Positions 7,394 to 44,097 of a stretch of 64,000 nt of DNA are shown here, piece by piece (the first letter of the stretch is position 1; each line of letters starts with the position of its first letter). Both the position numbers and the translations under genes were made by a program. Source of the DNA: Hydrolagus colliei (Eukaryota); the NCBI GenBank assembly GCA_035084275.1, contig CM068743.1, positions 130,696,001 to 130,760,000 on the forward strand, given 5' to 3'. The notes under the pieces are model-generated. The model did no database searches, was not told where the DNA came from, and saw only the letters and a list, made by a program, of their open reading frames with translations.

Positions 7394-8541
7394 TACGGTC
7401 CGGCGATATATCGATTAAAAACCCGATATAATTTTCATATCGGTATGCCGATATAGACATTTTTAAAATATCGATATCTCGAAAAAACGATATATCGAGG
7501 TAAAAAATCGGGATGCGAGCACACTGAACTACAAGACCCAGAATGCTCATCTCTATACACAATGCACAGACCGAGGTGCAAAGCCGCCATATTGTATTCA
7601 CAGTCCTCGAATACAATATACAGGTATGCAAGGGCTGGGGGGTGAGAGAGATGGCTGGGGGTGGGGGGGTGAGGGGGAGAGAGACGGCTGGGGGGAGGGG
7701 GAGAGAGACGGCTGGGGGGAGGGGGAGAGATGGCTGGGGGGGGAGGAGAGGGGGAGAGAGACGGCTGGGGGAAGGAGGAGAGAGACGGCTGGGGGGAGGG
7801 GGAGAGAGACGGCTGGGGGGGGAGAGGGGGAGAGAGACGGCTGGGGGGGGAGAGGGGGAGAGAGACGGCTGGGGGGAGGAGGAGAGAGACGGCTGGGGGG
7901 AGGAGGAGAGAGACGGCTGGGGGGAGGAGGAGAGAGACGGCTGGGGGGAGGAGGAGAGAGACGGCTGGGGGGGGGAGAGGGGGAGAGAGACGGCTGGGGG
8001 GAGGAGGAGAGAGACGGCTGGGGGGGGGAGAGGGGGAGAGAGACGGCGGGGGTGGGGGGGAGAAAGAGACGGCTGGGGGGGTGGTGGTGGAGAGAGACGA
8101 CGGGGGTGGGGGGTGCGAGAGAGACGGCTGGGGGGGAGAGAGACGGGTGGGGGTGTGAGAGAGACGGCTGGGGGGGAGGGAGAGAGAGACGGGGGTAGGG
8201 GGTGCGAGAGAGGGGGGGGGGGAGAGAGACGTGAGAGAGGGGTGGATGTGATAATATACAGATAGATAGAGATGGGGGGGATGTGAGAGAGGAGAGAGGG
8301 ATAGAGACACACAGACAGAAAAACACAAGAGATGGAGAGAGTGAGAGACACAGAGAGAGAAATATATTTACCTCCTGAGAAGATAGGCCCTGAATGCACG
8401 CGCACCCGGGATGCGCGCGCACTCCGAATGCACACGCGCATGCGCAGTACGAAAAAACTGAAAATATCGATATTTCGGTATATCTCGATATGAGCCCATC
8501 GATATATCTAATCGGAAAATTTTCCATATCGACGGACCCTA
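7394..8541 (-). mobile_element. Non-autonomous hAT-type DNA transposon (MITE), copy 1, with internal G-rich minisatellite
   Basis: TIRs TACGGTCCGGCGATAT / ATATCGACGGACCCTA; 8-bp TSD CTGGTCGG at 7386-7393 and 8542-8549; many CGATAT subterminal repeats. Confidence 0.9.
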
Positions 8542-9269
8542 CTGGTCGGCAAACTCCAAGATGTCAAACTTAGTCTCTGAGGCTTCCTTTCACCCCATCC
8601 TCACTGCCCTAATGGAACGTTCCATTACTTCCTGATCCCAACTCCAGTTCGGGTGTACATTCTTGACTGTTCAGACTTTGTGTCGTCCTCCTGACTTGAA
8701 AGGAGTTATGCAACTGTAATTTGCTGTTGTGGAGTACTTCCTGAGTTGAGCAGGGGACTTAAAAAAAAATTGTTATTCTACCGGCAGGATGGGACAACGT
8801 TGGTTGGTTTGAGGGTAACAGGGATGTGGTGCTGGATAGTTTATTTTTAATTTAAACATAAAATATAATAATTCATATAAAAGCCTAAACTATGGAATGA
8901 GAAAATTGGCATTCATCCAATCAAGTCATTGGCAAGTCTTCCACTAACTCTTCACTCACTATACCTAATGTGAATGTTTGATAGTCACAAGTGCATGTGG
9001 AATAATTATGCATTGCCAGGACAACCCTCCTGACAACCCTCATCTTGATGAAAACATTTGCCACAAAATAAAATTGTCCTCATGATTTTTTCATCCCTAT
9101 GGATCATGCATCCCCACAAAAACCCCAGCTCCTACTCCCCACTCTTCATTACTCCTACTCAGCCCCTCTCTCCTACTGCTTACCCTGTCTTCTCTCCCTC
9201 CTGGACCTACCCACAGCCTCCCTCTGCTCCAGCCTTGGGCATCCTCCACCGAGCCCACCGCAGATATTT

Positions 9270-10575
9270 CTGATCTGATCACCGCAGACAAGGTAATCTC
9301 AGACCACTTCCTCTTCTCCTCCTCTCACGTCACCAGCCTTCCATTATCTTATTCCACCACCAAAACTGGAGAAGTGACCCAGATCTCCCTCTTCCTCCTC
9401 ATTCTCCTGAACCTCTTCACTACGTTCAATACAGTTGACCACATCATACTCCACTGCCTCTCTTCCCTCTTTCACCTCAATGGGACCACACTCGCATGTT
9501 CGAGCTCTATTCCACAAACTGGCAATAAAATATCTGGGTAAATGGTTTCTGTTCCCACACCCGCCAGGTCACCTGTGGGTACCCTAAAACTCCATCCTTA
9601 GTCCCCTTCTTTTCTTTATCTACATGTTCCCTCTCTGTGATGTCATCTGCAGACATGGCAGCAACTTCCACATCTATGTCGATGACATCCAAATCTACTT
9701 CTCCTCCAGCTACTACTCTCAGTCAGCTGATGTCTTGTCAGCTTGTTTGACAAACATCAAGGCCTGGAATAGTGCAATTCTTCTGCAACAGCATGTCAGC
9801 AAGATAGAAGCCATACTCTTTGGCTGCAGTCAACGCTTCTCTCTTCAACCTCACTGAGTTATCCCTTAGAGTCACCGAACCCTTGCACAACTTAGGTGCC
9901 AAGTTTGATCCACAGCTTTCTTTTTTACCCCACAATCATTCCCTAACCAACAGAGCTTTTTTCACCTACGTCACATTGCCCGACTCTGTCCGTACCTCAC
10001 TACCAACTCAGCTGAAGTTCCTGTCTTCGCCTTCGTCACTTTCCAGCTCGACTATTCCAATGCCATCCTCGTTGGTGTCTCCACTCCAACAACCACAGAA
10101 TTGAACTAATTCAAAACTCACCTCCCTGTTTCTCATCCGCACAGAATTCCATACCCCCATCACACCAATCCTTCCTGGACTCCACTGACTCTCAATTACC
10201 GAACGGATTGATTACAAGATCCTCTCACTTGTTTTCAAATGCCTTCATGTCCTGGCATCTCCCTACCTATTCAATCTGCTTACCCCTTACTCCGCTGCCT
10301 CTGCTTGGCTGGCTCTGGCCTCCTGTTTGCCCCCTTATCATTCCACTTCACCTTCAGTGGTCATGTCTTCAGGCACTATGTCCTGGAACTCTGCCCCTCA
10401 ATCCCTCCGCCTTGTTCGCTCCCTCTACACTTTCAAATCCTGCCTTCCGTTTTTGAACGTGCTTGTGTTCACCTCCCCACCTCGCTCTCCCCCTGGCTCG
10501 GGGTCAGATTCCACCACTGTCAAACGCTTTAGGAGACTCCCCTGTATGAAGGGAAGTATGTAAATACAAGGTTGT
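9270..10575 (+). mobile_element. Degenerate L2 LINE
   Basis: Decayed FHIYVDDIQIY and HNLGAKFDPQLSF segments, pyrimidine-rich, L2-type tail. Confidence 0.8.
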
Positions 10576-10732
10576 TTCATTGTCGTGGTTAAACCACGGT
10601 CCTGTCTGACTATTCAGATGGACATTAAAGATCCCGCGGCACTATTCAAAAGAGAGGAAAGTTGCTTCTGGTGTTCTGACCAACAGTTCCCCAAATAAAA
10701 TTGATTTGTTTCAAGGCTGTTTGTAGTACAGT

Positions 10733-12720
10733 ATAGAATCATAGAATCATAGAATTTTACGGCACAAAAGGAGGCCATTCGGCCCATCTAGTCTGCCGGC
10801 TCTTTGAAAAGAGCGATTCAATCCCACTGCCCTGCCCGCTCCCCATAGCCTAATAGACCCGTTCTCCCTAAATAAAGATCTAATTCCCTTTTAAAAGTTG
10901 TTATCGAATCAGCCTCCACCACCTTTTCAGGCAATGCATTCCAGATTCAAACAACTCGCTGAGTGAAAAAAATTCTCCTCAGCTCCCCTCTACTGCGCCT
11001 TGAAACTATTTTAAATCTGTGACCACGAGTCACAGATTCACCCACGAGTGGAAATAGTTTTTCTCTATTTGCCCTGTCGAAACCCCTCATGATCTTATAA
11101 ACCTCTATTAGGTCTCCCCTCAATCTTCTCTGCTCCAGAGAGAATAACCCTGGCCTATCTAGCCTCTCCTCATAGCTGAAGTCCCTCAATCCTGGCACCA
11201 TCCTAGTAAATCTTCGTTGTACCCTTTCCAATGCCTTCACATCCTTTCTGTAGTGTGGTGACCAGAATTGAAAACAGTATTCCAGCTGAGGCCTCACCAA
11301 AGTCCTATAGAGGTTAGTCAGCACTTCCTGACTTTTGTACTCTATACCCCTATTTATAAAGCCTAGTATCCCATATGCCTTCTTAACAGCCTTGTCTACC
11401 TGTCCTGCCACCTTCAACGAGTCACTAACACAAATCCCCAGGTCTCTCTGTTCCTTTACACCATTTAAAATTGTACTATCTAGCCTATATTGCCTCCCTT
11501 CATTTCTTCTCCCAAAATGCATCACCTCACACTTCTCTGCATTAAACTTCATCTGCCATGTGTGCCCACTTTACCAATTTGTCTATATCCTCTTGCAGAT
11601 GGCTACTATCCTCCTCACTATTTACTATTCTCCCTAACTTAGTGTCATCTGCAAACTTGGAAACTGTACTCCGTACACCCAAGTCCAGATCATTGATGTA
11701 GATTACAAACAGCAATGGTCCCAAAACCGATCCCTGTGGCACACCACTGCTCACTTCCCTCCAATCTGAAAAACAGCCGCTCACTACAACTCTCTGCTTT
11801 CTGTCTCGCAGCCAGTTGTGGATCCACGCTGCCACTGTCCCTTTTACGCCATGGGCCTTTAATTTCCTAATAAGTCTCTCATGTGGCACTTTGTCAAATG
11901 CCTTTTGAAAGTCCATGTAAACTACATCAACTGCGCTACCATTATCCACCCATTCCGTTACCTCATCAAAAAATTCTATCAGATTTGTAAGGCAAGATTT
12001 GCCTTTAACAAATCCATGTTGACTGTCCTTTATTAGCCTATATCTTTCTAAGTGAAGATCTAGATTATGGACTCTAGAAGTTTGCCCACTACCGACGTTA
12101 GACTGACTGGTCTGTAGTTACCAGGCTTGTCCTTCTGCCCCTTTTTATACAAGGGAGTAACATTAGCTATCCTCCAGTCCTCTGGCACGACCCCTGTGTC
12201 CAAGGAAGATTGAAAGATCGTGGCCAGAGTCCCTGCTATTTGCTCCCGTGCCTCACTTAGTAACCTAGGGTGCATCCCATCCGGACCAGGTGACTTATCC
12301 ACCTTGAGCGACGTCAACCTTTTTAGCACTTCCTCTCTGGTTATAATTATTCTATCCATTTCTCCTACCCTCTCCTCTAATACCATGGCATTGGCTGTAT
12401 CCTTTTCTTTTGTGAAGACAGAGGCGAAGTACTCATTCAGTACATCAGCCATGCCCTCTGCCTCCACAATGAGATTTCCTCCTAGGTCCCTAATTGGCCC
12501 CACCCTCTCCTTGACCAACCTTTTACTCTTAATATGTTGGTAAAAAACCTTAGGGTTCCCCTTAATCTTACTCGCTAATTGTTTTTCATGCAGTCTCTTT
12601 GCCCCTCTAACTTCCTTTTTTAGTTCTATCCTACACTTCCTATATTCTGCTTTGTTCCCTTCTGAATTTTGAGCCTGACACTTATCATAAGCCTCTTCTT
12701 TTTGTTTTATTTTGGCCCCG
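10733..12720 (-). mobile_element. CR1-clade LINE, same subfamily as 5689..7069, inverted, 5'-truncated, disrupted
   Basis: Near-identical reverse complement; KSPGPDG and NYRPVSLTS motifs; 10-bp deletion near 12060, 2-bp deletion near 11565, CGA>TGA near 10947; (ATTCTATG)n tail. Confidence 0.95.
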
Positions 12721-15276
12721 AAATATACAGTACTGTATATTTCTTTATGCAATTGGGCTGCTTCATTCACCACCAATTGCAATGTCATGCAACGTCAGAG
12801 TAAATCCTGGGAAGCGCTCTCAGATGTACTCCTGACATGAAAGGCGCTATACCAAATTAAGGATTATTATTACAACATTTGGGTAGCATAATACAGTATT
12901 ATGCTCAGCATTTTATGTGCAAAATATTAAAGCATTGAAAATTCAGTTTTTATCTGTCTTGTTTTTTAAGCAGTAAGAAGATAAATATGTGGTCTTAAAA
13001 CCATAGGTTTAGAAGATTTATTTTTTCTCTCTTTTGCCCCCCCCCCCCCCCGAGGGTGGCAGCTATTTGAAACAGGATCTATAATGTAGTGAAGCCTTTA
13101 AAAAGGACCTGGATCAATATTGTGACATAAGAATAGTAACAACTGTGCTTGATCATCATGGGGTTAGGAAAAAGAGCAGGAGCCAAGGGATTAATTGAAG
13201 GAGAGGCAAGGGAATTGGTAATCATAATGGGCAAGCAGCACAAAGTTTATCAGTACTTTTGCATCATTTCAGCTGGCTAATTTTTATTAGTGTAACAACT
13301 GTGCACTTTGGGGTCCCTTAATGCCTTGGCTCACACCAGCCGCACTACAGGTATATAGAGGGGAAAAGAGATTACCAGTATGCACTCCCAAAATGACAAA
13401 ATTGCTTCTCTGCAATTTCAGTCATTGGAATTGTAGTCCCTCACAAATGACAAGGGATTTCTGTGTGTATTCGGCTGCCAGATGACCAAAAAGAGAAGAA
13501 ACCCAATTGCATTTCCCTACTCATCATGTTATTGAAATTGTAAATTATTGAGTAGGTAAGCGTTGGGTGCACAGGTATGACTCAGTTTGTATAAAACCAT
13601 GCTACTGCAGAGGTATGAAACCTAGTTAAAGGTGAGAATTTTTAACTTTTGTTATTTTATGTTTTCCAAGTTTCCCTTCAGTCATCTTTAAGCAGAAAAA
13701 AAAACAAGCATGTTTAATTGAATCTTCATAACTTAGTCCTTTGAGTCTTGGAATAATCATTATCCTTTGAGCTCTTCCAGTGCATCTGTGTCATTTTGAT
13801 AAATGATGACTGCATAATACAACTTGTTGTGACTTGTAATCCGAAGCTCTTACAATGCCTCCCTGCAGTTGACTTGCTTTGTTTACAACAACTTCACTGA
13901 CTAGATAAGGCATTATCAATGACCATGCCCAAAACAGCTTTCATGACTAATGGATAGCATTGCATGATATACGTAGAGTTCTGATGAAGGGTCATAGCTT
14001 TCTTTAGTTTCAGATGATGAAAGACCACTTATGGAATTCCAATATTTCCTATCTATTACATATGCTAACCATTTCCTTTTGCTAACCGTATTACCTTACA
14101 TTTATCTAAATTAAAATCCATTCTCAACCCATTCAATTAATCAAAATCTTCCTAAATATTATAAATATGATCTCTGCTTTTTTACCTGGCCTCATGGGTT
14201 TGTGTTATTGTTCAGTTTTACCAGATCTACCTAATTCATACATTGTGTGAAAAGCAAGAAAACTATGACATTATGGACCTCCACTGGATGCTGCTTCTCC
14301 TAAGCAGACTGTTGCCATTGATGAAAACCACCTACCCTTCAAAGCCAGTTTTCAATCCATTTGCAGAATGCATCTATTCCATGTATCCCAATCCCCCTTA
14401 CAAGTCTTGCATGATTAACTTTATCAAACACCTTTTTATATAAAATAATCCAAGTCAGCTATAACCAACTGGATAATTTACATCCATTATCTTTGTTATT
14501 GCCTCATGGTAGGCATGACCAATGACATCTAATGTTGACAAACACTGGAAAAAAGTGATACTATAAATGATTATGGTTTACATCTTGTAAATATCTTGTA
14601 CAAAAAGTCCAAATACCATTACAATGCTGAATAAGTCTTAAAAAAAGATTTAAAAAAAATTGAATAGGCTAGCTGAAAAATGAAACTTGCTAGTTACCAT
14701 GTACTGTATAATGTTCTTGAGCATTTTTCTCACTATGCAGTTTACCTCTTTTGTGAATATTTGTTATTCTTCAGCACTGCCCCAGTAATCAGATGAAAGG
14801 TTTACATTTTAATAGAACCATATCTTGTCAAAGTGGCTTGAATGGCTTCTTATGTAATTATTCTTGTGAATTGTGGTAGGGAAAAAAGCAGCAGCCTTTT
14901 ACATCAGGTAATAATTAAAATTTTTATCTGCATTCCCCTTATGTCCTTCAGTTGCCTTCCTCCTGAAGCTGTTGTCAGAAATGTCATTGCAAGCTATTTG
15001 AAAGAAAACCTTTTTAGGTTCATCTCTTCAGCTGTGCTAGACTTTATTTTGCATGTAGCAGGATTAGCAGAGGTGGCGAAGACATAGCACTTCACTGCCA
15101 TTTGAAAAATAATACTACACTCTGCCTCTGAGTCAGAATATGGAAATCAAGCTCCACAGCAGAACTTGGAACTCATAGTCGGAGCTGACACTCCAAAGCA
15201 GTCCTGGGGGTGTCACTACTGGAGGTGTTGTCCTTTGGCTGAGATGTTGAGGATCCCATGGAATTACTACAGTAAA

Positions 15277-17576: not shown

Positions 17577-17880
17577 AATAATAATAATAAATAATAATAA
17601 TTCTTGCATTTGGTATAGCGCTTTTCACGACGTGTAGGCATCTCAAAACACGGAATATACTGTAAAATGAATTGACTGTACATATGTGGGCGAAACACGG
17701 CAGCTAATTGCCTACATCAGTGTCCTACAAACAATCATGGATTGAAATTACCAATTTTTCTAGGGATTATTATTAGGCATGCTGAGTAAGGAAACTTGCC
17801 CAAGGTGTCACCCTGTGTGGAATTGAAACCAGGTCTCTTGCTTGTAAGGCGAGTGCTCTAACCACTGAACTACAGGTCTC
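17577..17880 (-). mobile_element. tRNA-derived SINE, full-length copy
   Basis: Reverse complement of the 29823-30131 family. Confidence 0.8.
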
Positions 17881-20726: not shown

Positions 20727-20934
20727 AATTTTTGAACCGGCCTTTAGAGAAATATGTAAAGAAATTGGAAGTGCCAGTTAGGATTCTGCGAATGGAACAA
20801 CGCTCTGGTCTGATCCGAGCAAGACTGAAAGGGGCAGCAGCTTCCAAAGGACAAGTGATCACATTCTTGGACGCTCACTGTGAATGCACAGTGGGCTGGC
20901 TGGAACCACTGCTGGCAAGGATTAAATTGGACAG
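20727..20934 (+). CDS. GALNT1: GALNT1 coding exon (208 bp) with the DxH Mn2+-binding motif
   Basis: ttccag|AA ... ACAG|gtaaga; [70 protein letters not shown]; phase matches previous exon. Confidence 0.97.
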
Positions 20935-22199
20935 GTAAGAGCAATCTTGTGTGTGTAAAAAAAAAAGGCTGCATGGATGAAAGGTCTTAATTAGAACTTT
21001 AGAGGTTAGTGACATTTTTTGAACTGGTTGGCTATTGCTAAATCAGAAAGAGACTAGTGAGCTGTTTCAGTCTCCAATTCAGGAAGCATCTTGTATGTTG
21101 CTACTGATTTGCAATATAGCCTTTAAAATCCCCAAATCAGCTTTTTTATCTTCAGTGTTGGTCCCACTTCAATTGCCACATCTCCTGACCTTTTATTGTA
21201 CAGAACGCATCTAATGAACTGTTAAAAGAACCATGAATTTAAATATAAATTGCATTATTAGCAAAATGCTGTATTCTTTCCTGTTTTCAATCTGTTCCAA
21301 AAAAGTTTTAGAAGAAATACGAATTATAATTCAAAAATGTTTAAGTGAACTTTAATATTTTCTGCATAGCTCATAATTTTCCTTTCAAAATTGGATCTTC
21401 TTTGAATAGTGGAACTAGTTAATGCTGAAGTTGATTTAAATAAAGCAGTCATTACCTAACCACTCTGCTCTAAACCTTGTATATAATATAACCTCAAATA
21501 TAACCTTAGCCTCTCATTGTAGCTAAAACCCATTCAACCCATGTGTTTTAGCGAATCATCACTGGACAAACCCCAAGGCTAGAACATTATAGTCTTCTTA
21601 AGAATACATGTCCCAAACTGAGCACAGTATTCCAAATGAGGGCTGATCAATAGTATAATTGGAGCAGCAACTCCTTACTTTTATATACCAGCTCTCTAGT
21701 AATCTTGTAATAAAAAATGTTTTGCCTTACTAACTGCTTTTGCAGGTACACAGTGGATTTTAATGATCGAGAACTAAACTAGAACCCCTAAATCTCTGCT
21801 CATTCCTATCTCTTAGTAGTTTGCATATAGAATGTATGCAGAATAAAAATTCTATCCAAGGTCTACTACCTGACACTTTGTAATATTTAACTTCATCTTG
21901 CATAGTTCTGTCCATTCGACGAATCTATCTAGATCTCTGATTTTCACCTGATCTCTTTACAATTTCTAATACAGGTAGACCCCGCTTAACGAAGGGGTTG
22001 GGGACTTTAAAACCCTTTGTTGTATGAAAAATTTGTTAAGCGAGAGTTTAACTGTATTACTGTATTTGGCCACAGCCAAAACGCCGCCCCGACCCTCCCT
22101 GCTAAAATCAGTTTACAGGTAGACCCCGCTTACCGAGCGCCCGGTTACCGAAACTTCACTATAACAAGGGTTTCTATTTGTATCACTTCTCCACTTAAC

Positions 22200-22474
22200 T
22201 TCTCCTTCAGTTTCTCCGCTTCCACCCTATGGAATGCCATCCCTCAATCCCTCCGTCTCGTTTCTTCCCTTTCCTCTTTCAAGGCCGGTTTGAAGACTTT
22301 CCTCTTCGATCGTGCCTTTTGTTCCACCCCAAACTCTTCTACCTCCCCTTCATGTTTTACCCCTTCCCAAACACTCCCCTCTCAGCTCGGGTCACGCGCC
22401 TCTTGTGCAGCGCCTTGGGACGTCCTCCCGACGTGAAAGGCGCTCTATAAATGTAATTTGTTGTTGTTGTTGTT
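22200..22474 (+). mobile_element. L2 LINE 3' end inserted in the inner element
   Basis: Matches the 3' end of the L2 at ~32280-32525; (TTG)n tail; TTAAC on both flanks. Confidence 0.85.
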
Positions 22475-22692
22475 AACAAAGGCTGCTTTCGCTATAACGA
22501 ATGTTGACACACACTTTAAATCTCGCGGGCTTCTCGTGCACAACTTCTCATGCGCAGCTTCTCTCTGGTTGTCCTAGCAACGCACACTCAGACTTAAGCG
22601 TGCCTCAGTTGAGCAGTGCAGTGCAGCCCCTCCCATATGGGAGGATCTTAATCAGCAGAATGCTTCGTGGCGTCAATAATAGTAAGTCGAGA

Positions 22693-23068
22693 TAGGGTCG
22701 GGGGGATAGAGAGATAGAAAGGAGGGGGGGATAGAGAGATGGGGGGGATAGAGAGGAGTGGGGGATAGAGAGGAGGTGGGGATAGAGAGGGAAGGAAGTG
22801 GGGATAGAGAGGGAGGAGAGGGGAGATAGAGAGGAGTGGGGGGATAGAGAGGAGGCGGGTATAGAGAGGGAGGGTAGGGGAGATGGAGAGGGAGGGGAGG
22901 GGGGATAGAGAGGAGGGGGGGATAGAGAGATAGAGAGGAAGTGGGGATAGAGACATGGGGTGAGGATAGAGAGGGAGGGAAGGGGGGATAGAGAGGGGGG
23001 GGGGGGTAGAGAGAAAGAGAGGAGGGGGGAGGTGTAGAGAGAAAGAGAAGAGGGGGAGGAAGAAAGAA
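22693..23068. repeat. Polypurine minisatellite (GGGGATAGAGAGGA-like units)
   Basis: Tandem degenerate G/A-rich units. Confidence 0.9.
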
Positions 23069-23397
23069 GCACGTCATGTGTCCTAAAATGCCTGGGCCCA
23101 GGTTGGGATATTTCAGTGTAGTGACTGTGAAGACCTGGCCTGGATTGGCGTTTTTATTCTTGCAATTTTTGTCACATTCTGGATTCCGGAACTCCGGACT
23201 TTTGGCTGTTCAACCTGTACACCGAAAATGTTAGCTCTAGGAATTAAACTGATGTTAGCAGGGAGGCTCGGGTCGGGCAGTTAATCTCTCGCTTAACGAA
23301 ATTTTCGCATAACAAAGGATATTAAACTCCTTAACCCCTTCGTTAAGCGGGGTCTACCTGTATTTCCTAGCAGTGATTAGCGCTAACATTTTCGGTG

Positions 23398-23863
23398 TAC
23401 GATTTGAGTGTCCAAAATCCGGAGTTCTGGAATACGGAATGTTACGGAGTACGGAATGTTACAGACTCGGGGAGGATTGGTGGCAGGATCGTCCGGAATC
23501 CGTAAAATGTTGCGGAATCCGGACACCCTGTCAAACCGTTTCCGTCGCCAGCCGGGCCCAGTGAAAAGTCAAAAAATGAAATCCAACTACTGTACAGTGA
23601 CAAACATCGCAAGAATAAAAACGCCAATCCTACCTGCTCCAGGCCAGGTTTTCACAGTCACTGCACCGAAATATCACAACCTGGGCCCAGGCATTTCCGG
23701 ACTCGGGACGGGCTTCTGGTGTTCCGAAGTCCGGAAATAGCCGAACCTGGGCTCGGGCGTTTCCGGACTTCAGACATCAGATACATGTTCCGAAGTCCGG
23801 AAAAACACGAAAACCGGCTTGGCCTCGGTCCCGAGGTTGCCGGATTCAGGACGCTCAACCTGT
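23398..23863. mobile_element. Tigger-like MITE nested within the outer element, rich in TCCGGA repeats
   Basis: Right end GGACGCTCAACCTG|TA, degenerate left end TACGATTTGAGTGTCC; inverted partial homolog at 23085-23220. Confidence 0.65.
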
Positions 23864-24228
23864 ACTAGCGAAGGCCTAAGGCAGATATAACTGCTATTGA
23901 AGGCTACACAACTTTAAATACAACAGTAAAATATTAAAATGTTAGTAAATACAACAATAAACAATAAAATAGACAGTCCTCGACTTACTATTATTGAAGC
24001 CATGAAGCAGTACAGTGCTGTCCATACCATATGGGAGGAGCTTAAGCGGCAGAATGTTGGCCAGCCAGAAAATGCTGCCCAGGAGAAGCCCACGAGATTT
24101 AAAGTGTGTGTAAACATTCGTCATAGCGAACGCAGCCTTCGTTAAGCGGAGAAGTGGTACAAATAGAAACCTTCGTTATAGTGAACCTTTGTTGACCGAG
24201 CGTTCATTAAGTGGGGTCTACCGCTTAA

Positions 24229-25008
24229 TAGGGAACGGCGATATGGGAGTTTTCCGGATATGGATATATCGGTTGGCTCATATCGAGATATACCGAAATA
24301 CCGATATTTTCCGTTTTTTCGTACTGCGCGCATCGGAGTGCGCGCGCATTCGGGGCCTATCTTCTCAGGAGATAAATATCTTTCTCTGTGTCTCTCACTC
24401 TCTCCATCTCTGTGTTTTTCTGTCTGTGTCTCTCTATGTCTCTCTCCCTCTCTCCTCTCTCACATCCCCCCCCATCTCTATTTATCTGTATATTATCACA
24501 TCCACCCTGTCTCTCCCCCCCCCCCCCCCCCACCAGCCGTCCCTCTCTCGCACCCTCCACCCCCCGTCGTCTCTCTCCCCCACCACCACCCCAGCCGTCT
24601 CTTTCTCCCTCCCCCCCCCCCCCCAGCCGTCTCTCTCCCCCTCCCCCCAGCCGTCTATCTATCTCCCCCTCACCCCCCCCAGCAGTCTCTCTTCCCCTCA
24701 CCCCCCACCCCCAGCAGTCTCTCTCCGCCTCACCCCCCCCCCCACCCACAGCCGTCTCTCTTCCCCCACCCCTTGCATACCTGTATTATGTATTCGAGGA
24801 CTATGAATACAAGATGGCGGCTTTGCACCTCGGTCTGTGTATAGAGATGAGCATTCTGGGTCTTGTAGTTGATTGTGCTCGCATCCCGATTTTTTACCTC
24901 GATATACCGTTTTTCGATATATCGGTATTTTTACAATGTCTATATCGGCATACCAATATGAAAATCATATCGGGTTTTACCGATATACCGATATATCGCC
25001 GTTCCCTA
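24229..25008 (+). mobile_element. Non-autonomous hAT-type MITE, copy 2
   Basis: Perfect 16-bp TIR TAGGGAACGGCGATAT; 8-bp TSD CCGCTTAA at 24221-24228 and 25009-25016. Confidence 0.92.
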
Positions 25009-28520: not shown

Positions 28521-28691
28521 GAGTACAGTGGTCTGTCCAATAATTGATGTGATTAGTGATGATACTTTTGAGTACATGGCGGGATCAGATATGACCTATG
28601 GAGGATTTAATTGGAAGTTGAACTTCCGCTGGTATCCTGTACCTCAGAGAGAGATGGACAGAAGGAAAGGAGATAGGACTATTCCTGTTAG
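28521..28691 (+). CDS. GALNT1: GALNT1 coding exon (171 bp)
   Basis: tattag|G ... TTAG|gtaagt; [57 protein letters not shown]. Confidence 0.97.
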
Positions 28692-29822: not shown

Positions 29823-30131
29823 GGAGTCCTGTAGTTTAGTGGTTAGGGCACTTGCCTTACAAGCGAGAGACCTGGGTTCAATTTCAGGCAGGGTGAAATC
29901 TTGGGCAAGTTTCCTTACTCCACATGCCTAATAATAATCCCTCAAGAAAAATAATAAATTGGGCATTTCAATTCACGAGTGTTCAATTCACAATTGCTGT
30001 GTGCAATTGGCTGCAGCGTTTCACCCACAATTATACAGTCAATTCACTTTACAGTACATTCTGTGATGTGCTTTGAGACATCTAGAAGACGTGGAAAGAG
30101 CTATATCAAATGCAATAGATTATTATTATTT
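29823..30131 (+). mobile_element. tRNA-derived SINE (tRNA-Val-like head, L2-type tail, (TAT)n end)
   Basis: A box TAGTTTAGTGG, anticodon-like CTTACAA, B box GGTTCAATT; other copies at ~1030-1178(-), 17577-17880(-), 39568-39859(-), 45015-45310(+), 56139-56312(+) and 62883-63230(-). Confidence 0.8.
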
Positions 30132-30229: not shown

Positions 30230-30347
30230 GACTCCCACAATGGCAGGAGGATTGTTCTCAATAGACAGAGATTACTTTGAATTGATAGGAACATATGATG
30301 CAGGCATGGATATATGGGGAGGAGAAAACCTAGAAATGTCATTCAGA
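30230..30347 (+). CDS. GALNT1: GALNT1 coding exon (118 bp), Gal/GalNAc-T motif WGGEN
   Basis: aattag|G ... AGA|gtaagt; [39 protein letters not shown]. Confidence 0.97.
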
Positions 30348-31084
30348 GTAAGTATTGAATGTTTCTTTGGACCACGATCAATCTTATTCAATAAATACAA
30401 AAGATGTAACATTTATGTTGGCGTTTCACAGGATATTTTCTCAATATTGGAAGCTTGCAAGATTAATTTCACATGAAATTTTTTTTTAATTGATTTGCAA
30501 ATAATCCAAAATCATTGAATATTGATATTTGCTGATTTCCAACAAATTTAACTCAAAAGGAGGCAGTATAATCTAATCTAAACAAGCTATCTATCTATCA
30601 CATCTATTTTACTTAAGGTGCTGAATGGGATATGACATGCTCTGAATATTACATGTAAAGCCTCCTTGGACATATTTTCCCTCATGTTATCAATTGGAAA
30701 TTCTATTTTACAAAAGAAAACAAATCTTGAAAAACATCAGGAAATTACATCATCACATTCCTGCTCTCCATTACATATACAGTATAAAGCCTGATTTGGG
30801 GGTCTTATTTTTATTCTTTTTCTCCTCTTTAACATTTTGTTTCTGTTCAACATACATTCACTTTACAGTATATTCTGTGAAGTGCGTTGAGATGTCCAGA
30901 TGACGTGAAAAGCGCTATATCAAATGCAAGGATTATTATTGTTGTTATTTCTTATTGTCTATTTAGCTGTAAAATAATAAAATAACAACAAAATTACATT
31001 TATACAACAACAGCAAAATTACACTTGTATAGCGCCTTTCACTTCCTATGGAGGACGTCCCAAAGTGCTTACTTGCTACTTAAC

Positions 31085-32525
31085 TGGACTGAACCTCCCG
31101 TTTTTATCCAAGGTCCTTGAAAGAGTGGTTGCCTCCCAGCTCCGCTCTTTCCTTTCAACTCACTCACTCCTTGAACCCCTCCAATCAGGTTTCCGCCCTA
31201 TCCACAGCACAGAAACTGCCCTGGTTAAGGTTACAAATGATATCCTAACCGCCTGTGACCAGGGCTCCCTTTGCCTCCTCGTCCTCCTTGACCTGTCTGC
31301 TGCGTTCGACACAGTCGATCACACCATCCTCCTCCAATGTCTTTCCTCCCACCTCAACCTTCAAGGCACAGTCCTTGACTGGTTCCATTCCTACTTGACC
31401 CACCGTTTACACTTTGTATCTTCCAATGGTTTTTCCTAAACCCCCGCACAGTTTCTCACGGCGTCCCTCAGGGCTCTGTCCTCGGCCCCCTCCTTTTCAC
31501 CATTTATACGCTCCCTCTGGGCGATGTCATCCGCAAACATGGGGTAAATTTCCACATGTATGCGGACGACACCCAGCTGTACCTTTCTGCCTCATCCCTC
31601 AACCCCAGACCATCGATGTTCTGACAGCATGTCTGTCTGACATCGAGTCCTGGACGAGGGAAAATTTCCTGCAATTGAACGTGAGTAAGACCGAGGCCCT
31701 CCTGATCGGCTCAAACCAGCGCCTCCGCACATCGGGCACTGCCAGCCTCAACATCCAAGGCTGTACTCTCCACCTCACAAAGCCAATCAGGAACCTCGGC
31801 ATCACGTTCGACCATAAACTCTCCTTCCTCCCCCACATCCGTGCCTTGACCGGCACCGCTTACTTCCACCTGCGAAACATTGCCAGGCTCCGCAACTATC
31901 TTACCCCCCACGCTGCCGAAACACTCATGCACGCGTACATCACCTCAAGGCTGGACTACGGAAACTCTCTCCTCGTCGGCCTCCCCAGTTCCTCCATTCA
32001 CAGGTTGCAGGTCATCCAAAACTCTGCAGCCCGTGTATTATCCCGCACCCGCCTCCGCGACCATATAACCCCCACCCTCGCCCGTCTCCACTGGCTCCTC
32101 ATCCTCCAGAGGATCGAGTTCAAGATCCTCGTCCTCACCTTCAAGGCCTTACACGGCCTTGCCCCGCCCTATTTAACCAATTTACTCTCCCCCTACAAGC
32201 CCACCCGGACCCTCCGTTCAGCAGGTCTTGGCCTGCTCCAAGCCCCTCGCCTGAACCGCCCCAACATCGGAGGCCGGGCCTTCAGTTTTTCTGCTCCGTC
32301 TTTATGGAATTCCAAACCCCAATCCCTCCGTCTCGTTTCTTCCCTTTCCTCTTTCAAGGCCGGTTTGAAGACTTTCCGCTTCGACCGTGCCTTTTGTTCC
32401 ACCCCGAATTTTTCGACCTCCCCTACGTGTTTCACCCCTCCCCGTACACTCCCCTCCCAGCTCGGGTCACATGCCTCCTGTGCAGCGCCTTGGGACGTCC
32501 CAAAGTGTAATTTGTTGTTGTTGTT
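31085..32525 (+). mobile_element. L2-clade LINE, 5'-truncated, frameshifted RT
   Basis: [42 protein letters not shown] and SRLDYGNSLL motifs over two frameshifts; (TTG)n tail. Confidence 0.93.
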
Positions 32526-33395
32526 GAATCTGCAGCATCACTTTGGATATCAAGCCAGCAGAGCATATCTCTCTTGGTTTGTTTCCAGTCAATTCAGCCT
32601 TGCAACCAGGCTATGATTTAAAATCTGTGTTGGATATCCTGGACTCATACCAGTGAATTAGTTACACATCTGTCTCCACGGGAATGCTGGTAATCTGTAG
32701 CAGGTTAATAAGCAGCTGAAAGAAAAATTAGTTTACATTTTTGGGTTTGCCCTTCATTTAAAAGATATCCAAGTTGCATCTGTTTTGCTGGTTTCCAGTG
32801 ATAGATTATTTTTACCAAGTGTGAATTCCCCTTGTTGCTCAGAAGAAGTGCTTGGTATGATTGGTTCATTTGCTGGAAGGTGTTATGAGCTGCATGGATG
32901 TCAAAGCCTGCTTCCTCGAGGTGTAGAGAGACCTCCAATATCCATTTGGGCATAAAAACAGTTCTTCACTCACAGATCAGATAGGGAATTAAGCAGGGAA
33001 CATTCATAGGTCCACCTAGAATGATGCATATGCTGTTCCATGTACACTCAGAGAAAAAACATTTGGGTCCTTTGAGACCCAGATGATTTTTCCAGCATTT
33101 TTCAAACTGACTGACTTTAGTTTAATATTTACTATTGTGTGACTAGCCATATACACTGTTGTGATAAGGCCATGTGTAAAATAATACAATTAATTTATAT
33201 CTATGCTTTTGCAGGGAAATTAAGGATTAATATTATAAAATGTTAAACTGGCTGTAACATTATGTATTTGAGCAGTAAACCCATATTCTGTTATCTGTAC
33301 TGTTTAAATACAGAAGTGGGTGTTGTAGAAGAAGCAGTCAGCAGCGATGTGGTTGTGATGTGATCTATTATAATTTTATTTAATATCTTTTCTAG

Positions 33396-33576
33396 ATTTG
33401 GCAGTGTGGCGGGTCTTTGGAAATCGTGACCTGCTCACATGTTGGTCACGTGTTTCGAAAGGCCACACCGTACACTTTCCCAGGAGGAACCGGGCAGATA
33501 ATAAATAAGAATAACAGGAGGCTTGCTGAAGTCTGGATGGATGAATTCAAAAACTTTTTTTATATAATATCACCTG
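33396..33576 (+). CDS. GALNT1: GALNT1 coding exon (181 bp); not in the ORF track
   Basis: ttctag|ATT ... CCTG|gtaagt; [60 protein letters not shown]. Confidence 0.97.
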
Positions 33577-35617: not shown

Positions 35618-35866
35618 GTAAAAATGCAAAATACTGCAGATGCTGGAAATCTGAAACAAAAACAGAAATCACTGGGAACACTCAGCAAGTCAGGCAGCAT
35701 CTATGGAGAAAGGAAAGTGGGTCAATGTTTCAGGTCCAGCACCTTCATCAGAACTTTTTAGATGGATGGTAATTTCTTGTCCTTTTGAGTTCTGACAAAG
35801 GGTCGTGGATCCGAAACGTTGACTAACTTTCCTTTCTCCATTGACGCTGCCTGAATTGCTGAGTAT
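35618..35866. mobile_element. Penelope-like element terminal repeats in inverted arrangement, with hammerhead-like cores
   Basis: Arms ~35680-35755 and ~35789-35866 are reverse complements; CTGATGA-stem-GAAAC motif; flanking 12-bp direct repeat TCCCAATATTAA. Confidence 0.7.
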
Positions 35867-39567: not shown

Positions 39568-39859
39568 TAATAATATTCCTTGCATTTTGATATAGTGCTT
39601 TTCATGTCTTCTAGACATCTCAAAGCTTTTCACTGAGTTAAAGCGAATTGGCTGTATATTTCTGGGTGAAACGCAGCAGCCAATCGCACACAGCAGTGTC
39701 TCGAGGATTGAAATGACCAAGTTTATGATGGGTTTTTTCTTGAATGATTATCAGGTGTGTGCAGTAAGGAAAGTTGCCCAGGGTTTTGCCCTGCCAGGAA
39801 TCGAACCCAGGTTTCTCGCTTATGAGGCGAGTGCTCTAACCGCTAACCTGGAGGACTCC
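39568..39859 (-). mobile_element. tRNA-derived SINE, full-length copy
   Basis: GGAATCGAACC (B box, reverse strand), same body and tail. Confidence 0.8.
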
Positions 39860-40958
39860 AGTTGTTGGCCAGAACACTGGAAAAAAAGAGTGCCAACTCA
39901 TCACCTCACCCAAAGTATTAAAAATGAACTTGATGAAAAGTATTTATTGTAGGATAAGTTGTGTCAAACCATCAGCAACTGTGCCTAATACACATTTGAA
40001 AATGACACAGAAACTCCCCCAATGGTTTGATTGCTAATTGCACCATATAAGCCTCTAGAGAAATATTTTATTAATTGAAAACTGCTGATGGAATATTCAT
40101 TTGTATCCACTTCGCAAATATGAAAAGACACCATGCAGATTGCCCATTGTTCTGTTTAAATGTGAAGTAACTGCAGCCTCTGTACATCTGTTGATCATTT
40201 TCTCAATCAATGCCCCAAATAGTGCTGCAAACTAGATCAGTGAAGTTAATACTGCAAAAGACCTTGCTTCCATGATGCATTAGAACAAGGTAATTCGTAA
40301 CAGTGTGAAGAACTCCTATATTAAGCATAACATGGATCTCAAGTTGATCGACAACCACAGGAAACCATTATTGAAACTATTATCTTCTACTCTCATCTCA
40401 TCATAAGCTTGCAAAAATGAAGTTGGTAGCTAGATTGAGACTGCAACAATTGCAGCATTTTAAATATGATCTCATATAGCAACAACAACAACAACTTTGA
40501 TTTATATAACACCCTCCACGCCGGATGGTGTCTCAGAGCGCTTCACAGTAAGCAATAAATGGCATCCATTACCCGCTTCCCTCTCCTTCCCCTAAACATA
40601 AATAAAATGCAGTCCCATAGGCAAAAATAATAACTTTGCAATGCGAAACAGCCAGAATGAAGGATTATATCTTTCTTTGAGAAAACAAAACCTATTTAAT
40701 CAAAAACTTAGGATGTTGGCTGTTTTACTACTCTGTTTGGGTTTTATATGAGAACAGTTTTAAACATCTGCTCTGAATTTCCAGCAGGGCTCAACAAATA
40801 TCTCTAAATGCTTAAAGAAATGTTAACCTGATATAGTCAAGGCTTGCATTCCCAAGGAATTCTGTTTATGTGAGAATTTTAATACCAGGGTAAAGATGAT
40901 GGTGCAGCATGTTCAATGATTAACTAAGATTTTTTTTAACTTTTAATCAATTCAACAG

Positions 40959-41098
40959 GTGTCACCAAGGTTGATTATGGAGATGTAACAGCACGTAAAG
41001 CATTAAGAGAAAAACTGTCATGTAAGCCTTTCTCCTGGTTTCTGGAGAATGTTTATCCTGATTCCCAAATTCCACGCCACTATTTCTCCCTGGGAGAG
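40959..41098 (+). CDS. GALNT1: GALNT1 coding exon (140 bp), end of catalytic domain and linker
   Basis: caacag|GT ... GAG|gtaagt; [47 protein letters not shown]. Confidence 0.96.
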
Positions 41099-41643
41099 GT
41101 AAGTATTTTGTCTTAACTGTTGAAACACTCTTTTTTTAAAAAGAGATGAAAAAGAAAGTTATAAAGTTATAAAAACACAGTTAAAAGGACTTCATTGTTG
41201 CACGAATCTGCTTATACAACAAGAACGGCTTGCATTTATATAGTGCCTCAGAGAGATGAATAACAACAAAATTACACTTGTATAGTGCCTTTCACGTCAG
41301 TAGGACGTCCCAAGTCACTGCTTCAGACCTGAGCTGAGGACAGAGGAGGTGGAGGGAAGGGGGAAATTAGGAGTTGCTGAATGTTGTTTGGGTCTGTTGT
41401 CACCAGAAGCATGGTGGAACACTTCCACCTTCTAGCATACACCGGCTGATTTCCTGTAGGTGCGTGCATGCATGCATCACACAAGAAGCCAGCCAGTAAA
41501 GGTTGCAAGCCTTATGACTACCTTTGCAAACATCTCTAGTCCTAGCTCATGAGCAAAGAGCTGGCTGGCTGACGTGTCAGCTTTCTGCTAGGGTTGGAAG
41601 TGACCTGAGTGATAACCCAATAACCATAAAGAGAAATAGGCAG

Positions 41644-42533
41644 TAGGGAACGGCGATATGGGAATTTTCCGGATATGGATATATCAGTTGGCTCATATTG
41701 AGATATTCCGCGTGCGCGCGCATTCGGTGCCTATCTTCTCAGGAGGTACATATCTTTCTCTCTCTGTGTCTCTCACTCTCTCCATCTCTGTCTTTTCTGT
41801 CTGTGTCTCTCTATGTCTCTCTCCTCTCTCACATCCCCCCCCATCTCTATCTATCTGTATATTATTACATCCACCCCGTCTCCCCCCCCCCCCCGTCCCT
41901 CTCTCGCACCCCCCACCCCCGTCGTCTCTCTCCCCCACCACCCCCCCAGCCGTCTCTTTCTCCCCTCTCCGCCCCCCCCAGCCGTCTATCTCCCCCTCCC
42001 CCCAGCCGTCTCTCTCCCCCTCCCCCCAGCCGTCTCTCTCCCCCTCTCCTCCCCCCCCAGCCGTCTCTCCCCCTCTCCTCCCCCCCCCCCCCAGCCATCT
42101 CTCTCCCCCTCTCCCCCCCCAGCCGTCTCTCCCCCTCTCCCCCCCCCCCCAGCCGTCTATCTCCCCCTCCCCCCAGCCGTCTCTCTCCCCCTCCCCCCAG
42201 CCGTCTCTCTCCCCCTCACCCCCCCCCAGCAGTCTCTTTCCCCCTCACCCCCCCCCCCCCCACCCACAGCCGTCTCTCTCCCCCCACCCCTTGCATACCT
42301 GTATATTGTATTCGAGGACTATGAATACAAGATGGCGGCTTTGCACCTCGGTCTGTACATTGTGTATAGAGATGAGCATTCTGGGTCTTGTAGTTGATTG
42401 TGCTCGCATCCCGATTTTTTACCTCGATATGTCGTTTTTCGATATATCGGTATTTTTGAAATGTCTATATCGGCATATCGATATGAAAATCATATCGGGT
42501 TTTAGCGATATACCGATATATCGCCGTTCCCTA
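41644..42533 (+). mobile_element. Non-autonomous hAT-type MITE, copy 3
   Basis: TIR TAGGGAACGGCGATAT; 8-bp TSD ATAGGCAG at 41636-41643 and 42534-42541. Confidence 0.92.
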
Positions 42534-43369
42534 ATAGGCAGCCATGTTTTTTTCACAGACTCACTATATACAGGGTTGCCTTGTATTTAGTCAAACCTCG
42601 CTGAGGTAATTGTTATGTTACTTCTACTCAAAACTGAAATCCTATTTAACCCTTTGGCAGACCATTTGTCATTCTATGTACTTTAGTGTGCTCTCTTTTT
42701 GTTATGGTTGTTAACAACAAAACAAAATTACATTTGTATACTGCTGAGAGGATGTCTTGAGTGCTGGTAATGATGCATATTTTATCATTTTAAATTCCTG
42801 TTCTGCTGCATTAGTTTTATTTGCAGTTTGTTCATGTAATACTGCACAGATGTGACATGTTATTGACTCAATGCAAAAATCAGGTCTCACGTGTAAACTG
42901 AACTGCAAGCTTAGGCCATCTGCATTCATATTACTTCAACACTACAACATTGTGCCAGTAAAGGGGGTGACCTGTTGACGAATCCTAGAATATTTTAGCA
43001 TAGAAACGGAGTTTAGCTCATTGTATCTGTGTCGATTGTGTAAACAATCCATTCAGTCCTACTACCTTTCTTCATCCGTTTATCCTTTCATACGTTTTTC
43101 AAATTATAGAGTTTATCAGCAGAACACTAGATGTATACTATCTATTGATAGATGCATTTATTTTCTGAATATTAGAATAATAAGTAATTAGCATAAGATG
43201 AAAATGTTTGCAAGCTGCATTGGTAAAGGAAGTGACTGGTGTTAATGTTGACATTTTCATTGGATGCATGTGATCAAATTGGATTGTAAACTGAAATGTA
43301 CTTACTCTGCTAATATTAATATTGTTAGTAAATCTTTCAAGGATCAGTTTGACCACGATGCATACAGTT

Positions 43370-44097
43370 TAGGGTCCAATATGAAAATATAATTTTCATA
43401 TTGAAAATATAATTTTCATATCGATACGCCGATATAGGCATTTCAAAAATATCGATATATCGAAAAATCGATATATCGAGGGGAAAAATTGGAATTCGCG
43501 CACACTCAACTACAAGACCCAGAATGCTCATCTCTATACACAATGCACAGACCGAGGTGCAAAGCCACCATATTGTATTCATAGTCCTCGAATACAATAT
43601 ACAGGTTTGCAAGGGGTGGGTGGGGGAGAGACGGTGGTGGGGGGGGGGGGCGGGTGAGGGGGAGAGAGACGGCTGGAAGGGGGAGGGGGAGAGAGACGGC
43701 TGGGGTGGGGGGAGGGGGAGAGAGACGGCGGGGAGGGGGAGAGAGACGGCTGGGGGTGGGGAGAGACGGCTGGTGGGGGGAGGGAGAGAGAGACGGCAGG
43801 GGGGGGAGAGGGAAAGAGACGGCTGGGGGGGTGGGGGGGTGGTGGGAGAGAGACGACGGGCGGGGTGTGGGGGGGAGAGAGGAGAGAGACACAGACAGAA
43901 AAACAGATGGAGAGAGTGAGAGACACAGAAAGAGAAAAATATTTACCTCCTGAGGAGATAGGCCCTGAATGCGCGTGCACCCGGAATACGCGTACACTCC
44001 GAATGTGCGCGCATGCGCAGTACGAAAATATCGATATATCTCGATATGATCCCATCAATATATCTAAATCGGAAAATTTCCATATCGATGGACCCTA
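43370..44097 (-). mobile_element. Non-autonomous hAT-type MITE, copy 4 (left end rearranged)
   Basis: Ends TAGGGTCC...GGACCCTA; 8-bp TSD ATACAGTT at 43362-43369 and 44098-44105. Confidence 0.9.

What the first reader, a model, noticed from the sequence alone, without database searches (positions are those of the whole stretch)
7394..44097. Mobile promoter-like cassette: hAT MITE family carrying ZNF143/THAP11-like, YY1 and NRF1 motifs in CpG-rich DNA
Seen: four independent insertions (7394-8541, 24229-25008, 41644-42533, 43370-44097), each with a different perfect 8-bp TSD. All four carry the identical 20-mer AACTACAAGACCCAGAATGC (7527-7546, 24851-24870 rc, 42376-42395 rc, 43508-43527). Nearby is CAAGATGGCGGC (24810-24821, 42328-42339; variant GCCGCCATATTG at 7583-7594). 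GCGCATGCGC occurs at 8436-8445 and 44009-44018. CpG density is far above the flanks. Known: RACTACAATTCCCAGAATGC is the ZNF143/THAP11 (SBS, GFY-Staf) motif, 2 mismatches away; CAAGATGGCGGC is the YY1 consensus; GCGCATGCGC is the NRF1 consensus. These motifs typify vertebrate housekeeping and bidirectional CpG-island promoters. Inference: the element captured or mimics a host promoter and spreads ready-made promoter/enhancer modules, or uses them to escape methylation. Four copies in 37 kb suggest a very high genome copy number.
Basis: partly seen in the sequence, partly recalled or inferred. Interest (0 to 1): 0.8.

Follow-up and report, generated by a model that had tools for sequence, protein, structure and literature searches.

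The report
Intronic transposon family carrying promoter motifs
Four copies of a small non-coding DNA transposon sit in the introns of a vertebrate housekeeping gene and really do carry binding motifs typical of housekeeping promoters, but the sequence gives no sign that the copies act as promoters or escape methylation.

Summary
Observation confirmed: four non-autonomous hAT-type elements (728-1148 bp), each with its own perfect 8-bp TSD, at the stated coordinates. The ZNF143/THAP11 (M4) and YY1 motifs are beyond chance (0 of 5000 shuffles each). The promoter-cassette reading is only partly supported. Just 11 of 178 CpGs lie in the motif core; most lie in AT-rich subterminal CGATA repeats (likely transposase sites), a G-rich minisatellite and a GC tandem. 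NRF1 is in 2 of 4 copies, on the far arm. YY1 is exact in 2, variant in 1 and CpG-deaminated in 1. The motifs are no better conserved than their neighbours in the core (p=1.0), although the core beats the subterminal region (p=0.006). CpG transitions are 2.9-fold elevated, as in an L2 control, which argues against methylation escape. All copies lie in introns of a GALNT1-like gene. Best reading: an ordinary hAT MITE family passively carrying its parent's regulatory end. TE-borne ZNF143 and YY1 sites have precedents. Dfam/Repbase, genome-wide copies and epigenomic data could not be checked.

The parts
7394..8541 (+). Copy c1 (1148 bp), subfamily with TAGGGTCC-type TIR; TSD CTGGTCGG at 7386-7393 and 8542-8549
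7394..7526 (+). c1 left TIR and AT-rich subterminal CGATA/TATCG repeats (13 CpG in 133 bp, GC 36%); inferred transposase BED-finger sites
   Evidence: function inferred from PMC10368747 and PMC12549938
7527..7546 (+). M4/SBS2-like (THAP11 + ZNF143) 20-mer; identical in c2 (24851-24870, -), c3 (42376-42395, -) and c4 (43508-43527, +)
7583..7594 (-). YY1-type site, one-base variant; exact in c2 (24810-24821) and c3 (42328-42339); CpG-deaminated in c4 (43564-43575)
7589..7619 (.). 11-bp inverted repeat with 9-nt loop whose left arm overlaps the YY1 site (11/11 in c1 and c4, 10/11 in c3, 9/11 in c2)
7635..8344 (+). c1 internal G-rich minisatellite (about 24-bp unit) grading into GA-rich sequence; accounts for the length differences between copies
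8388..8446 (.). c1 right-arm 17-bp GC tandem ending in the NRF1 palindrome (8436-8445); also in c4 (44009-44018); lost by deletion in c2 and c3
8447..8541 (+). c1 right subterminal CGATA repeats and right TIR
24229..25008 (-). Copy c2 (780 bp), subfamily with TAGGGAAC-type 16-bp TIR; TSD CCGCTTAA; inserted at the end of a Tigger-like element
41644..42533 (-). Copy c3 (890 bp), TAGGGAAC-type TIR; TSD ATAGGCAG
43370..44097 (+). Copy c4 (728 bp), TAGGGTCC-type TIR, left end rearranged by a 20-bp tandem duplication; TSD ATACAGTT; most diverged copy

Best explanation
This is a family of non-autonomous hAT-superfamily DNA transposons (MITE-like deletion derivatives) with two TIR subfamilies, moved in trans by a transposase encoded elsewhere. 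SHOWN: 8-bp TSDs, short TIRs, subterminal repeat arrays, no recognisable coding capacity, intronic location, a non-random M4 + YY1 core at positions about 134-206 from the left end. INFERRED: (1) the CpG-rich ends are arrays of CGATA/TATCGATA sites read by the transposase's BED finger, not a CpG-island promoter; (2) the M4 + YY1 core is a relic of the parent transposon's own regulatory end, where ubiquitous host factors would have driven transposase expression, and it is kept because it lies inside the roughly 200 terminal bp that hAT elements need; (3) the copies pass CpG-island thresholds because they are young and contain a GC-rich minisatellite, and they are mostly methylated passengers in introns. 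A few copies genome-wide may be co-opted, as known for other vertebrate MITEs.
For: TSD and TIR anatomy. 68 of 178 CpGs lie in AT-rich subterminal segments, 63 in the minisatellite, 36 in the right GC block and 11 in the motif core. 49 of 76 CGATA/TATCG words and 6 of 6 TATCGATA words in the window fall inside the copies, on 5.5% of the sequence. BED fingers of BEAF-32B and DREF bind clustered CGATA and TATCGATA (PMC12549938, passages). hAT BED domains bind subterminal repeats, and Tol2, Ac and Hermes need about 150-220 terminal bp (PMC10368747, passages). CpG transitions 9 of 178 copy-positions vs 20 of 1127 non-CpG (2.85x, p=0.012); controls L2 2.9x, tRNA-SINE 4.8x. Motifs not more conserved than the non-motif core. 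All four copies lie between coding exons of a GALNT1-like gene, two in each orientation. 0 of 10 scanned ORFs hit Pfam.
Against: No autonomous partner was found, so the relic-promoter step is untested, and which end faced the transposase is unknown. If the core drove inward transcription, the YY1 site is in the antisense orientation (orientation of the YY1 motif is recalled). The core is more conserved than the subterminal repeats (p=0.006), which a passive relic does not predict. The methylation signal is modest: against non-CpG C/G sites only it is 1.87x, p=0.21; c1-c3 alone show 6 of 132 vs 24 of 839 changes of any type (p=0.28), and a 5-fold CpG excess is rejected for them (p=0.005). Only four copies were available.
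Confidence: 0.55

Rival explanations
1. Host-factor-assisted transposition: the M4 (ZNF143/THAP11) and YY1 sites are under selection at the level of the element because host factors bound there keep the adjacent CGATA transposase sites nucleosome-free or unmethylated in the germline, raising mobility. The core is then a cis-requirement for jumping, not a promoter.
For: The 20-mer is invariant (0 of 20 columns) across both TIR subfamilies while the subterminal region varies (20 of 101, p=0.04); the whole core is more conserved than the subterminal region (p=0.006). The 20-mer directly abuts the last subterminal repeats, has no CpG, and lies within the terminal 200 bp. Left arms of c1-c3 show few CpG changes (1-2 of 31-32 sites per pair). 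The most diverged copy, c4, is the one that lost the YY1 CpG.
Against: The 20-mer is not more conserved than the rest of the core (p=0.34), and motif vs non-motif core gives p=1.0. Pooled CpG transitions match the L2 control. Youth plus selection on the transposase sites also explains intact CpGs. ZNF143 18-mer match is 13 of 18.
Confidence: 0.2
2. One reading: the element captured or mimics a host housekeeping promoter and spreads functional promoter/enhancer modules that escape methylation.
For: Three of the six or so motif classes that mark ubiquitous promoters occur in one element (10.1101/2023.06.27.546584, passages); non-random by shuffles; c1 carries all three types; copies pass CpG-island thresholds. 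Precedents: YY1-bearing DNA-transposon-like repeats tied to hypomethylation in Poecilia picta (PMC10760456, abstract and section 9); intronic hAT-N38_DR acting as a testis TSS in zebrafish (PMC9341505, passages).
Against: The motif core is CpG-poor (11 of 178). NRF1 is on the other arm and lost in 2 of 4. YY1 points toward the ZNF143 site, the reverse of the usual layout in which YY1 lies just downstream of the TSS and bidirectional motifs fire away from themselves (strand of the YY1 motif recalled). CpG deamination is visible, including within YY1 in c4. No source promoter lies in the window. Four strong internal promoters within one housekeeping gene would probably be selected against (inference).
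Confidence: 0.13
3. The motif matches are coincidental by-products of the element's composition and repeats (YY1 from a hairpin arm, NRF1 from a GC tandem).
For: The YY1 site overlaps an 11-bp hairpin arm, and the exact-consensus C is the base that breaks the hairpin. NRF1 arises in 1.1% of shuffles of its GC block. Many motifs could have been noticed after the fact.
Against: The 20-mer at up to 2 mismatches and the exact YY1 12-mer each arose in 0 of 5000 shuffles; the long M4 consensus is met with 1-2 mismatches. Chance can account for NRF1, hardly for M4 and YY1 together within 30-36 bp.
Confidence: 0.07

Closest known systems
Non-autonomous hAT elements / hAT MITEs of vertebrates (e.g. Xenopus hAT-N16_XT, zebrafish hAT-N families, Tol2-type ends)
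   Same: 8-bp TSD, short TIRs, subterminal repeat arrays, no transposase, intronic insertions; some copies carry TF sites and can be co-opted (PMC12676858, PMC9341505, passages).
   Different: Those reports concern tissue-specific motifs and have chromatin data. This family carries housekeeping-type motifs, a large variable minisatellite and two TIR variants. No sequence comparison with Dfam/Repbase was possible.
MLT1J retroelement carrying SBS2 (ZNF143/THAP11) sites
   Same: A transposable element bearing the ACTACA-extended ZNF143 motif, proposed to have spread it (PMC3627581, passages).
   Different: MLT1J is an ancient mammalian LTR retroelement with ChIP support. This is a young cut-and-paste element with a site matching 13 of 18 of the ZNF143 consensus and no binding data.
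YY1-motif repeats on the Poecilia picta X chromosome
   Same: Recently expanded, class II-like elements carrying YY1 motifs in a fish (PMC10760456, abstract and section 9).
   Different: piggyBac-like, superfamily unassigned, X-restricted, linked to measured hypomethylation; no ZNF143 or NRF1 described in the parts read.
DRE/CGATA sites of the BED-finger proteins DREF and BEAF-32B
   Same: Same words, clustered three or more within 100 bp in mixed orientation (PMC12549938, passages); BED fingers are shared with hAT transposases (PMC7471704, passages).
   Different: Those are Drosophila host factors. Binding of this family's transposase to CGATA is inferred, and hAT-derived domains have diverse specificities (PMC8097297, section 3).

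Membership tests
hAT superfamily | 8-bp target-site duplication | tested here: met
   4 of 4 copies, perfect and different
hAT superfamily | Short terminal inverted repeats | tested here: met
   16/16, 16/16, 14/16; c4 8/8 then rearranged. That hAT ends often begin TAG or CAG is recalled.
hAT superfamily | Short subterminal repeats in both ends | tested here: met
   11-14 CGATA/TATCG words per copy, all in the two end regions; feature described in PMC10368747
hAT superfamily | Cognate BED-DDE-hATC transposase with matching TIRs | not testable with these tools
   None in the copies (0 of 10 scanned ORFs, out of 23 overlapping ORFs of 100 aa or more, hit Pfam); no eukaryotic genome collection to search
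MITE | Short, non-coding, TIR + TSD | tested here: met
   728-1148 bp, of which 375-438 bp unique in c1 and c3; c1 and c3 exceed the usual 800-bp limit (recalled) because of the minisatellite
MITE | High genomic copy number | tested here: inconclusive
   4 in 64 kb; Poisson 95% range 1.1-10.2 per 64 kb; window was selected for the feature
ZNF143/THAP11 site (M4, SBS2) | M4 consensus | tested here: met
   Short M4 exact in 4 of 4; long M4 1-2 mismatches, 0.31 expected in window (consensus from PMC5006282)
ZNF143/THAP11 site (M4, SBS2) | 18-bp Staf/ZNF143 consensus (SBS1) | tested here: inconclusive
   13 of 18; 11 contiguous central positions match, 3' tail 2 of 6; not among 48 window matches at up to 3 mismatches
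CpG-island housekeeping promoter | GC and CpG o/e thresholds | tested here: met
   4 of 4 copies pass as whole elements; so does an L2 fragment; the motif core alone does not (GC 43-45%)
CpG-island housekeeping promoter | Absence of methylation-driven CpG decay | tested here: not met
   CpG transitions 2.85x, p=0.012, like L2 control; weaker (1.87x, p=0.21) against C/G sites only
CpG-island housekeeping promoter | Motifs conserved above neighbouring sequence | tested here: not met
   2 of 32 vs 5 of 76 variable columns, p=1.0; low power with four copies
CpG-island housekeeping promoter | TSS, open chromatin, H3K4me3, reporter activity | not testable with these tools
   No expression or chromatin data available

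The most novel reading that the evidence does not exclude
Vertebrate non-autonomous hAT elements keep a CpG-free ZNF143/THAP11 site plus a YY1 site directly inside their CpG-containing transposase-binding arrays so that ubiquitous host promoter factors open or protect the ends in the germline. Housekeeping-promoter motifs would then be a selected cis-requirement for transposition, and as a side effect one family would seed tens of thousands of ZNF143/YY1 sites across a genome.
Probability: 0.2. Interest if true: 0.7.

Novelty: new member of a known kind. Interest (0 to 1): 0.3.

Why it matters
As it stands, it is an ordinary hAT MITE family, possibly uncatalogued, in a gene's introns. It shows how young transposons mimic CpG islands through transposase-binding repeats and minisatellites. 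If the conserved M4 + YY1 core proved necessary for mobility or gave open chromatin at many copies, it would link cut-and-paste transposition to housekeeping-promoter factors and offer thousands of natural replicates for testing what makes a ZNF143/YY1 site functional. TE-borne ZNF143 and YY1 sites are each already in print, so only the combination and the mechanism would be new.

Tried and rejected
More copies or relatives: a left-arm reading frame of c3 found no homologue among proteins of similar length or longer ones (30 candidates, none significant); weak evidence, as the element is non-coding. A 27-nt core pattern had 0 matches in bacterial and archaeal genomes, as expected. No eukaryotic genome, Dfam or Repbase search was available, and viral and metagenome contigs stayed unchecked, so family identity, distribution, the autonomous partner and any host source promoter remain open. 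Rfam: 4 matches, all tRNA-like heads outside the copies. A 1.3-kb inverted repeat around c1 looked like a giant TIR but is two near-identical reverse-transcriptase LINE fragments in opposite orientation; rejected. Coding role: 0 of 10 scanned ORFs (of 23) hit Pfam. Other promoter motifs (panel of 13 short consensus strings, mostly recalled): ETS, full RFX and full BANP had 0 hits in the window; NFY, CRE, GC-box and E-box hits all lay outside the copies. A pooled test of all changes at CpG vs non-CpG columns was not significant (p=0.35 left, 0.07 right); only the transition-specific test was. Ten literature searches (others listed papers each, titles and abstract starts) showed no description of a hAT MITE with ZNF143 + YY1 + NRF1 sites; the library lacks most subscription journals and supplements were not read. 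The paper on YY1 position and strand in core promoters was not held, so YY1 orientation is recalled. Host lineage was not determined by any search.
Full report
OBSERVATION. All coordinates are correct. Each of the four elements is flanked by its own perfect 8-bp duplication, and the 20-mer, YY1 and NRF1 strings are where stated. The copies fall into two subfamilies: c1 and c4 end in TAGGGTCC and lie on the plus strand; c2 and c3 end in TAGGGAAC and lie on the minus strand. TIR identity over 16 bp is 14, 16, 16 and 10. Left arms are 83-96% identical pairwise and right arms 80-91%. Blastn with the eight unique arms finds no further copy in the window, so the count is 4 in 64 kb (5.5% of bases; Poisson 95% range 1.1-10.2 per 64 kb). 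The window was chosen for this feature, so extrapolation to the genome is biased upward.

ANATOMY. From the left end: TIR; about 130 bp of AT-rich subterminal repeats; a 101-108 bp core holding the 20-mer (position 134-139), the YY1-type site 29-36 bp further in, and an 11-bp hairpin overlapping it; a G-rich minisatellite region of 304-710 bp; a right arm with a 17-bp GC tandem ending in the NRF1 palindrome; right subterminal repeats; TIR. None of 10 scanned ORFs, out of 23 ORFs of at least 100 aa overlapping the copies, matches Pfam.

CONTEXT. Nine coding exons of a polypeptide GalNAc-transferase run along the plus strand from 2277 to the stop at 51592. Six of the eight exons scanned hit the expected Pfam domains, and one exon's best solved-structure match is GalNAc-T1 (E 1.5e-32). 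All four copies are intronic, 0.5-12 kb from the nearest exons; c3 and c4 share one intron. The gene's 5' end is upstream of the window. The host is a vertebrate. The mix of CR1-like and L2-like LINEs and tRNA-derived SINEs suggests a cartilaginous fish, but that and the CR1/L2 labels are recalled, not tested.

ARE THE MOTIFS REAL? Yes. The quoted ZNF143/THAP11 consensus has 4 matches in the window against 0.02 expected. In 5000 dinucleotide shuffles each of the c1 and c3 arms, neither the 20-mer at up to 2 mismatches nor the exact YY1 12-mer ever arose. NRF1 arose 5 and 2 times, and in 226 of 20000 shuffles of its own GC block. The site meets the long M4 consensus (PMC5006282, passages) with 1-2 mismatches. 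It matches the 18-bp ZNF143 consensus at only 13 of 18, with a poor 3' tail. The four hits descend from one ancestor and count once. No copy has all three quoted strings exactly: c1 has M4, a one-base YY1 variant and NRF1; c2 and c3 have M4 and exact YY1 but lost NRF1 by deletion; c4 has M4, NRF1 and a YY1 site whose CpG is deaminated.

WHERE THE CpGs ARE. The copies hold 4.6-5.2 CpG per 100 bp against 1.53 elsewhere, and they are 4 of the 5 regions passing 500-bp CpG-island thresholds; the fifth is a LINE fragment. Of 178 CpGs, 68 are in subterminal segments of 30-45% GC, 63 in the minisatellite, 36 in the right GC block and 11 in the motif core. Of 76 CGATA/TATCG words in the window, 49 are in the copies, as are all 6 TATCGATA words. 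These words are the sites of the BED-finger proteins BEAF-32B and DREF (PMC12549938, passages). hAT transposases bind subterminal repeats through BED fingers and need about 150-220 terminal bp (PMC10368747, passages). I infer that the arrays are transposase sites. hAT-derived domains vary in specificity (PMC8097297, passages and section 3), so this is a good fit, not a proof.

CONSERVATION. Variable columns in the left arm: 20-mer 0 of 20, spacer 1 of 36, YY1 2 of 12, after YY1 4 of 40, subterminal 21 of 101 (20 substitutions used in the tests). Motifs against non-motif core: p=1.0. 20-mer against the rest of the core: p=0.34. The first 43 columns (TIR and the rearranged end of c4) and the minisatellite were left out. 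Four copies give little power.

METHYLATION. Against a majority consensus (tied columns, columns with fewer than three copies, the first 43 left and first 12 right columns dropped), CpG transitions are 9 of 178 copy-positions against 20 of 1127 elsewhere (2.85x, p=0.012). Controls in the same window give 2.9x for six L2-like fragments and 4.8x for nine SINE copies. All 5 CpG changes private to c4 are deaminations. Results that cut the other way: against non-CpG C/G sites the ratio is 1.87x (p=0.21); each arm alone is not significant (p=0.11); counting all change types was not significant; and c1-c3 show too few CpG changes for a 5-fold excess (p=0.005) but fit 2-3-fold (p=0.40, 0.11). Perfect TSDs indicate young insertions. 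The data fit ordinary methylation of young copies and give no positive sign of escape. [quoted passage not shown]

GEOMETRY. In human promoters YY1 is strand-specific and lies just downstream of the start, while ZNF143 and NRF1 act bidirectionally and fire away from the motif (10.1101/2023.06.27.546584, passages). Taking the CAAGATGG strand as sense (recalled; the source paper was not held), YY1 here points toward the ZNF143 site and the left TIR, the reverse of the usual layout. NRF1 is about 450-850 bp away across the minisatellite in the two copies that have it. The three motifs do not form one compact promoter.

MECHANISM. Most likely (0.55): a hAT deletion derivative whose ends are transposase-binding arrays and whose core is a passive relic of the parent's regulatory end; copies are mostly methylated intronic passengers. 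Rivals: host factors at the core aid transposition (0.2); a captured promoter spreading active modules (0.13); coincidence (0.07). The element class is shown; every functional step is inferred.

COMPARISON WITH WHAT IS KNOWN. It meets the testable hAT and MITE features; the cognate transposase and Dfam/Repbase identity could not be tested. [quoted passage not shown] PMC7471704 (passages) was used for the BED-hAT link. Ten searches (listings only) showed no report of this three-motif combination in a hAT MITE; supplements were not read. My recollection, from no call, is that such motifs are common inside fish and amphibian non-autonomous DNA transposons, which would lower the surprise further.

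VERDICT. Real element, real motifs, overstated function. New member of a known kind; interest 0.3. The reading that host promoter factors are a selected requirement for transposition remains open (probability 0.2, interest 0.7).

Noticed in passing
window 2277-51592 (+): Nine coding exons of a GALNT1-like polypeptide GalNAc-transferase (about 2277-2443, 20727-20934, 28521-28691, 30230-30347, 33396-33576, 40959-41098, 44857-44955, 46447-46581, 51446-51592), apparently intact; hosts all four copies.
   Followed up: yes
window 5744-7060 and 10750-12794: Two young CR1-like LINE fragments, 98-99% identical, in opposite orientation 3.7 kb apart inside one intron; they mimic a giant inverted repeat around c1.
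   Followed up: yes
window 21972-24237: Nest of TA-flanked Tigger-like elements (21972-23360, 22116 onward, 23220-23397) with its own G-rich minisatellite (22700-23056) and weak promoter-like words (RFX half-site at 22573); label recalled.
   Followed up: partly
window 24203-25050: c2 inserted into a short palindrome at the end of the Tigger-like element, followed by an 18-bp tandem duplication (25012-25050); looks like hairpin-type repair at a transposon end.
   Followed up: no
window 7589-7619; 43570-43600: An 11-bp hairpin overlaps the YY1 site; the base that makes YY1 exact in c2 and c3 is the one that breaks the hairpin, so either state could be derived.
   Followed up: partly
window 7635-8344, 24395-24769, 41773-42287, 43616-43919: Minisatellites are strand-asymmetric and hold 4-8 G-quadruplex-type patterns per copy; the neighbouring Tigger-like element has 6.
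   Followed up: no
window 50385-50814 and 55171-55380: Further small inverted-repeat elements; the first is palindromic, CpG-rich (o/e about 1) and holds a BANP-core-like word at 50660.
   Followed up: no
window 51243-51390 and 52538-52685: 148-bp inverted repeat, 96% complementary, bracketing the last coding exon and start of the 3' UTR of the GALNT1-like gene; could pair in the pre-mRNA.
   Followed up: no
window 17808-17879, 29825-29896, 39786-39857, 56145-56207: tRNA-like heads of a SINE family with about 9-10 copies in the window; used as the CpG-decay control.
   Followed up: partly
window 30981-32616: Young L2-like LINE fragment that passes CpG-island thresholds as well as the MITE copies do.
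   Followed up: yes
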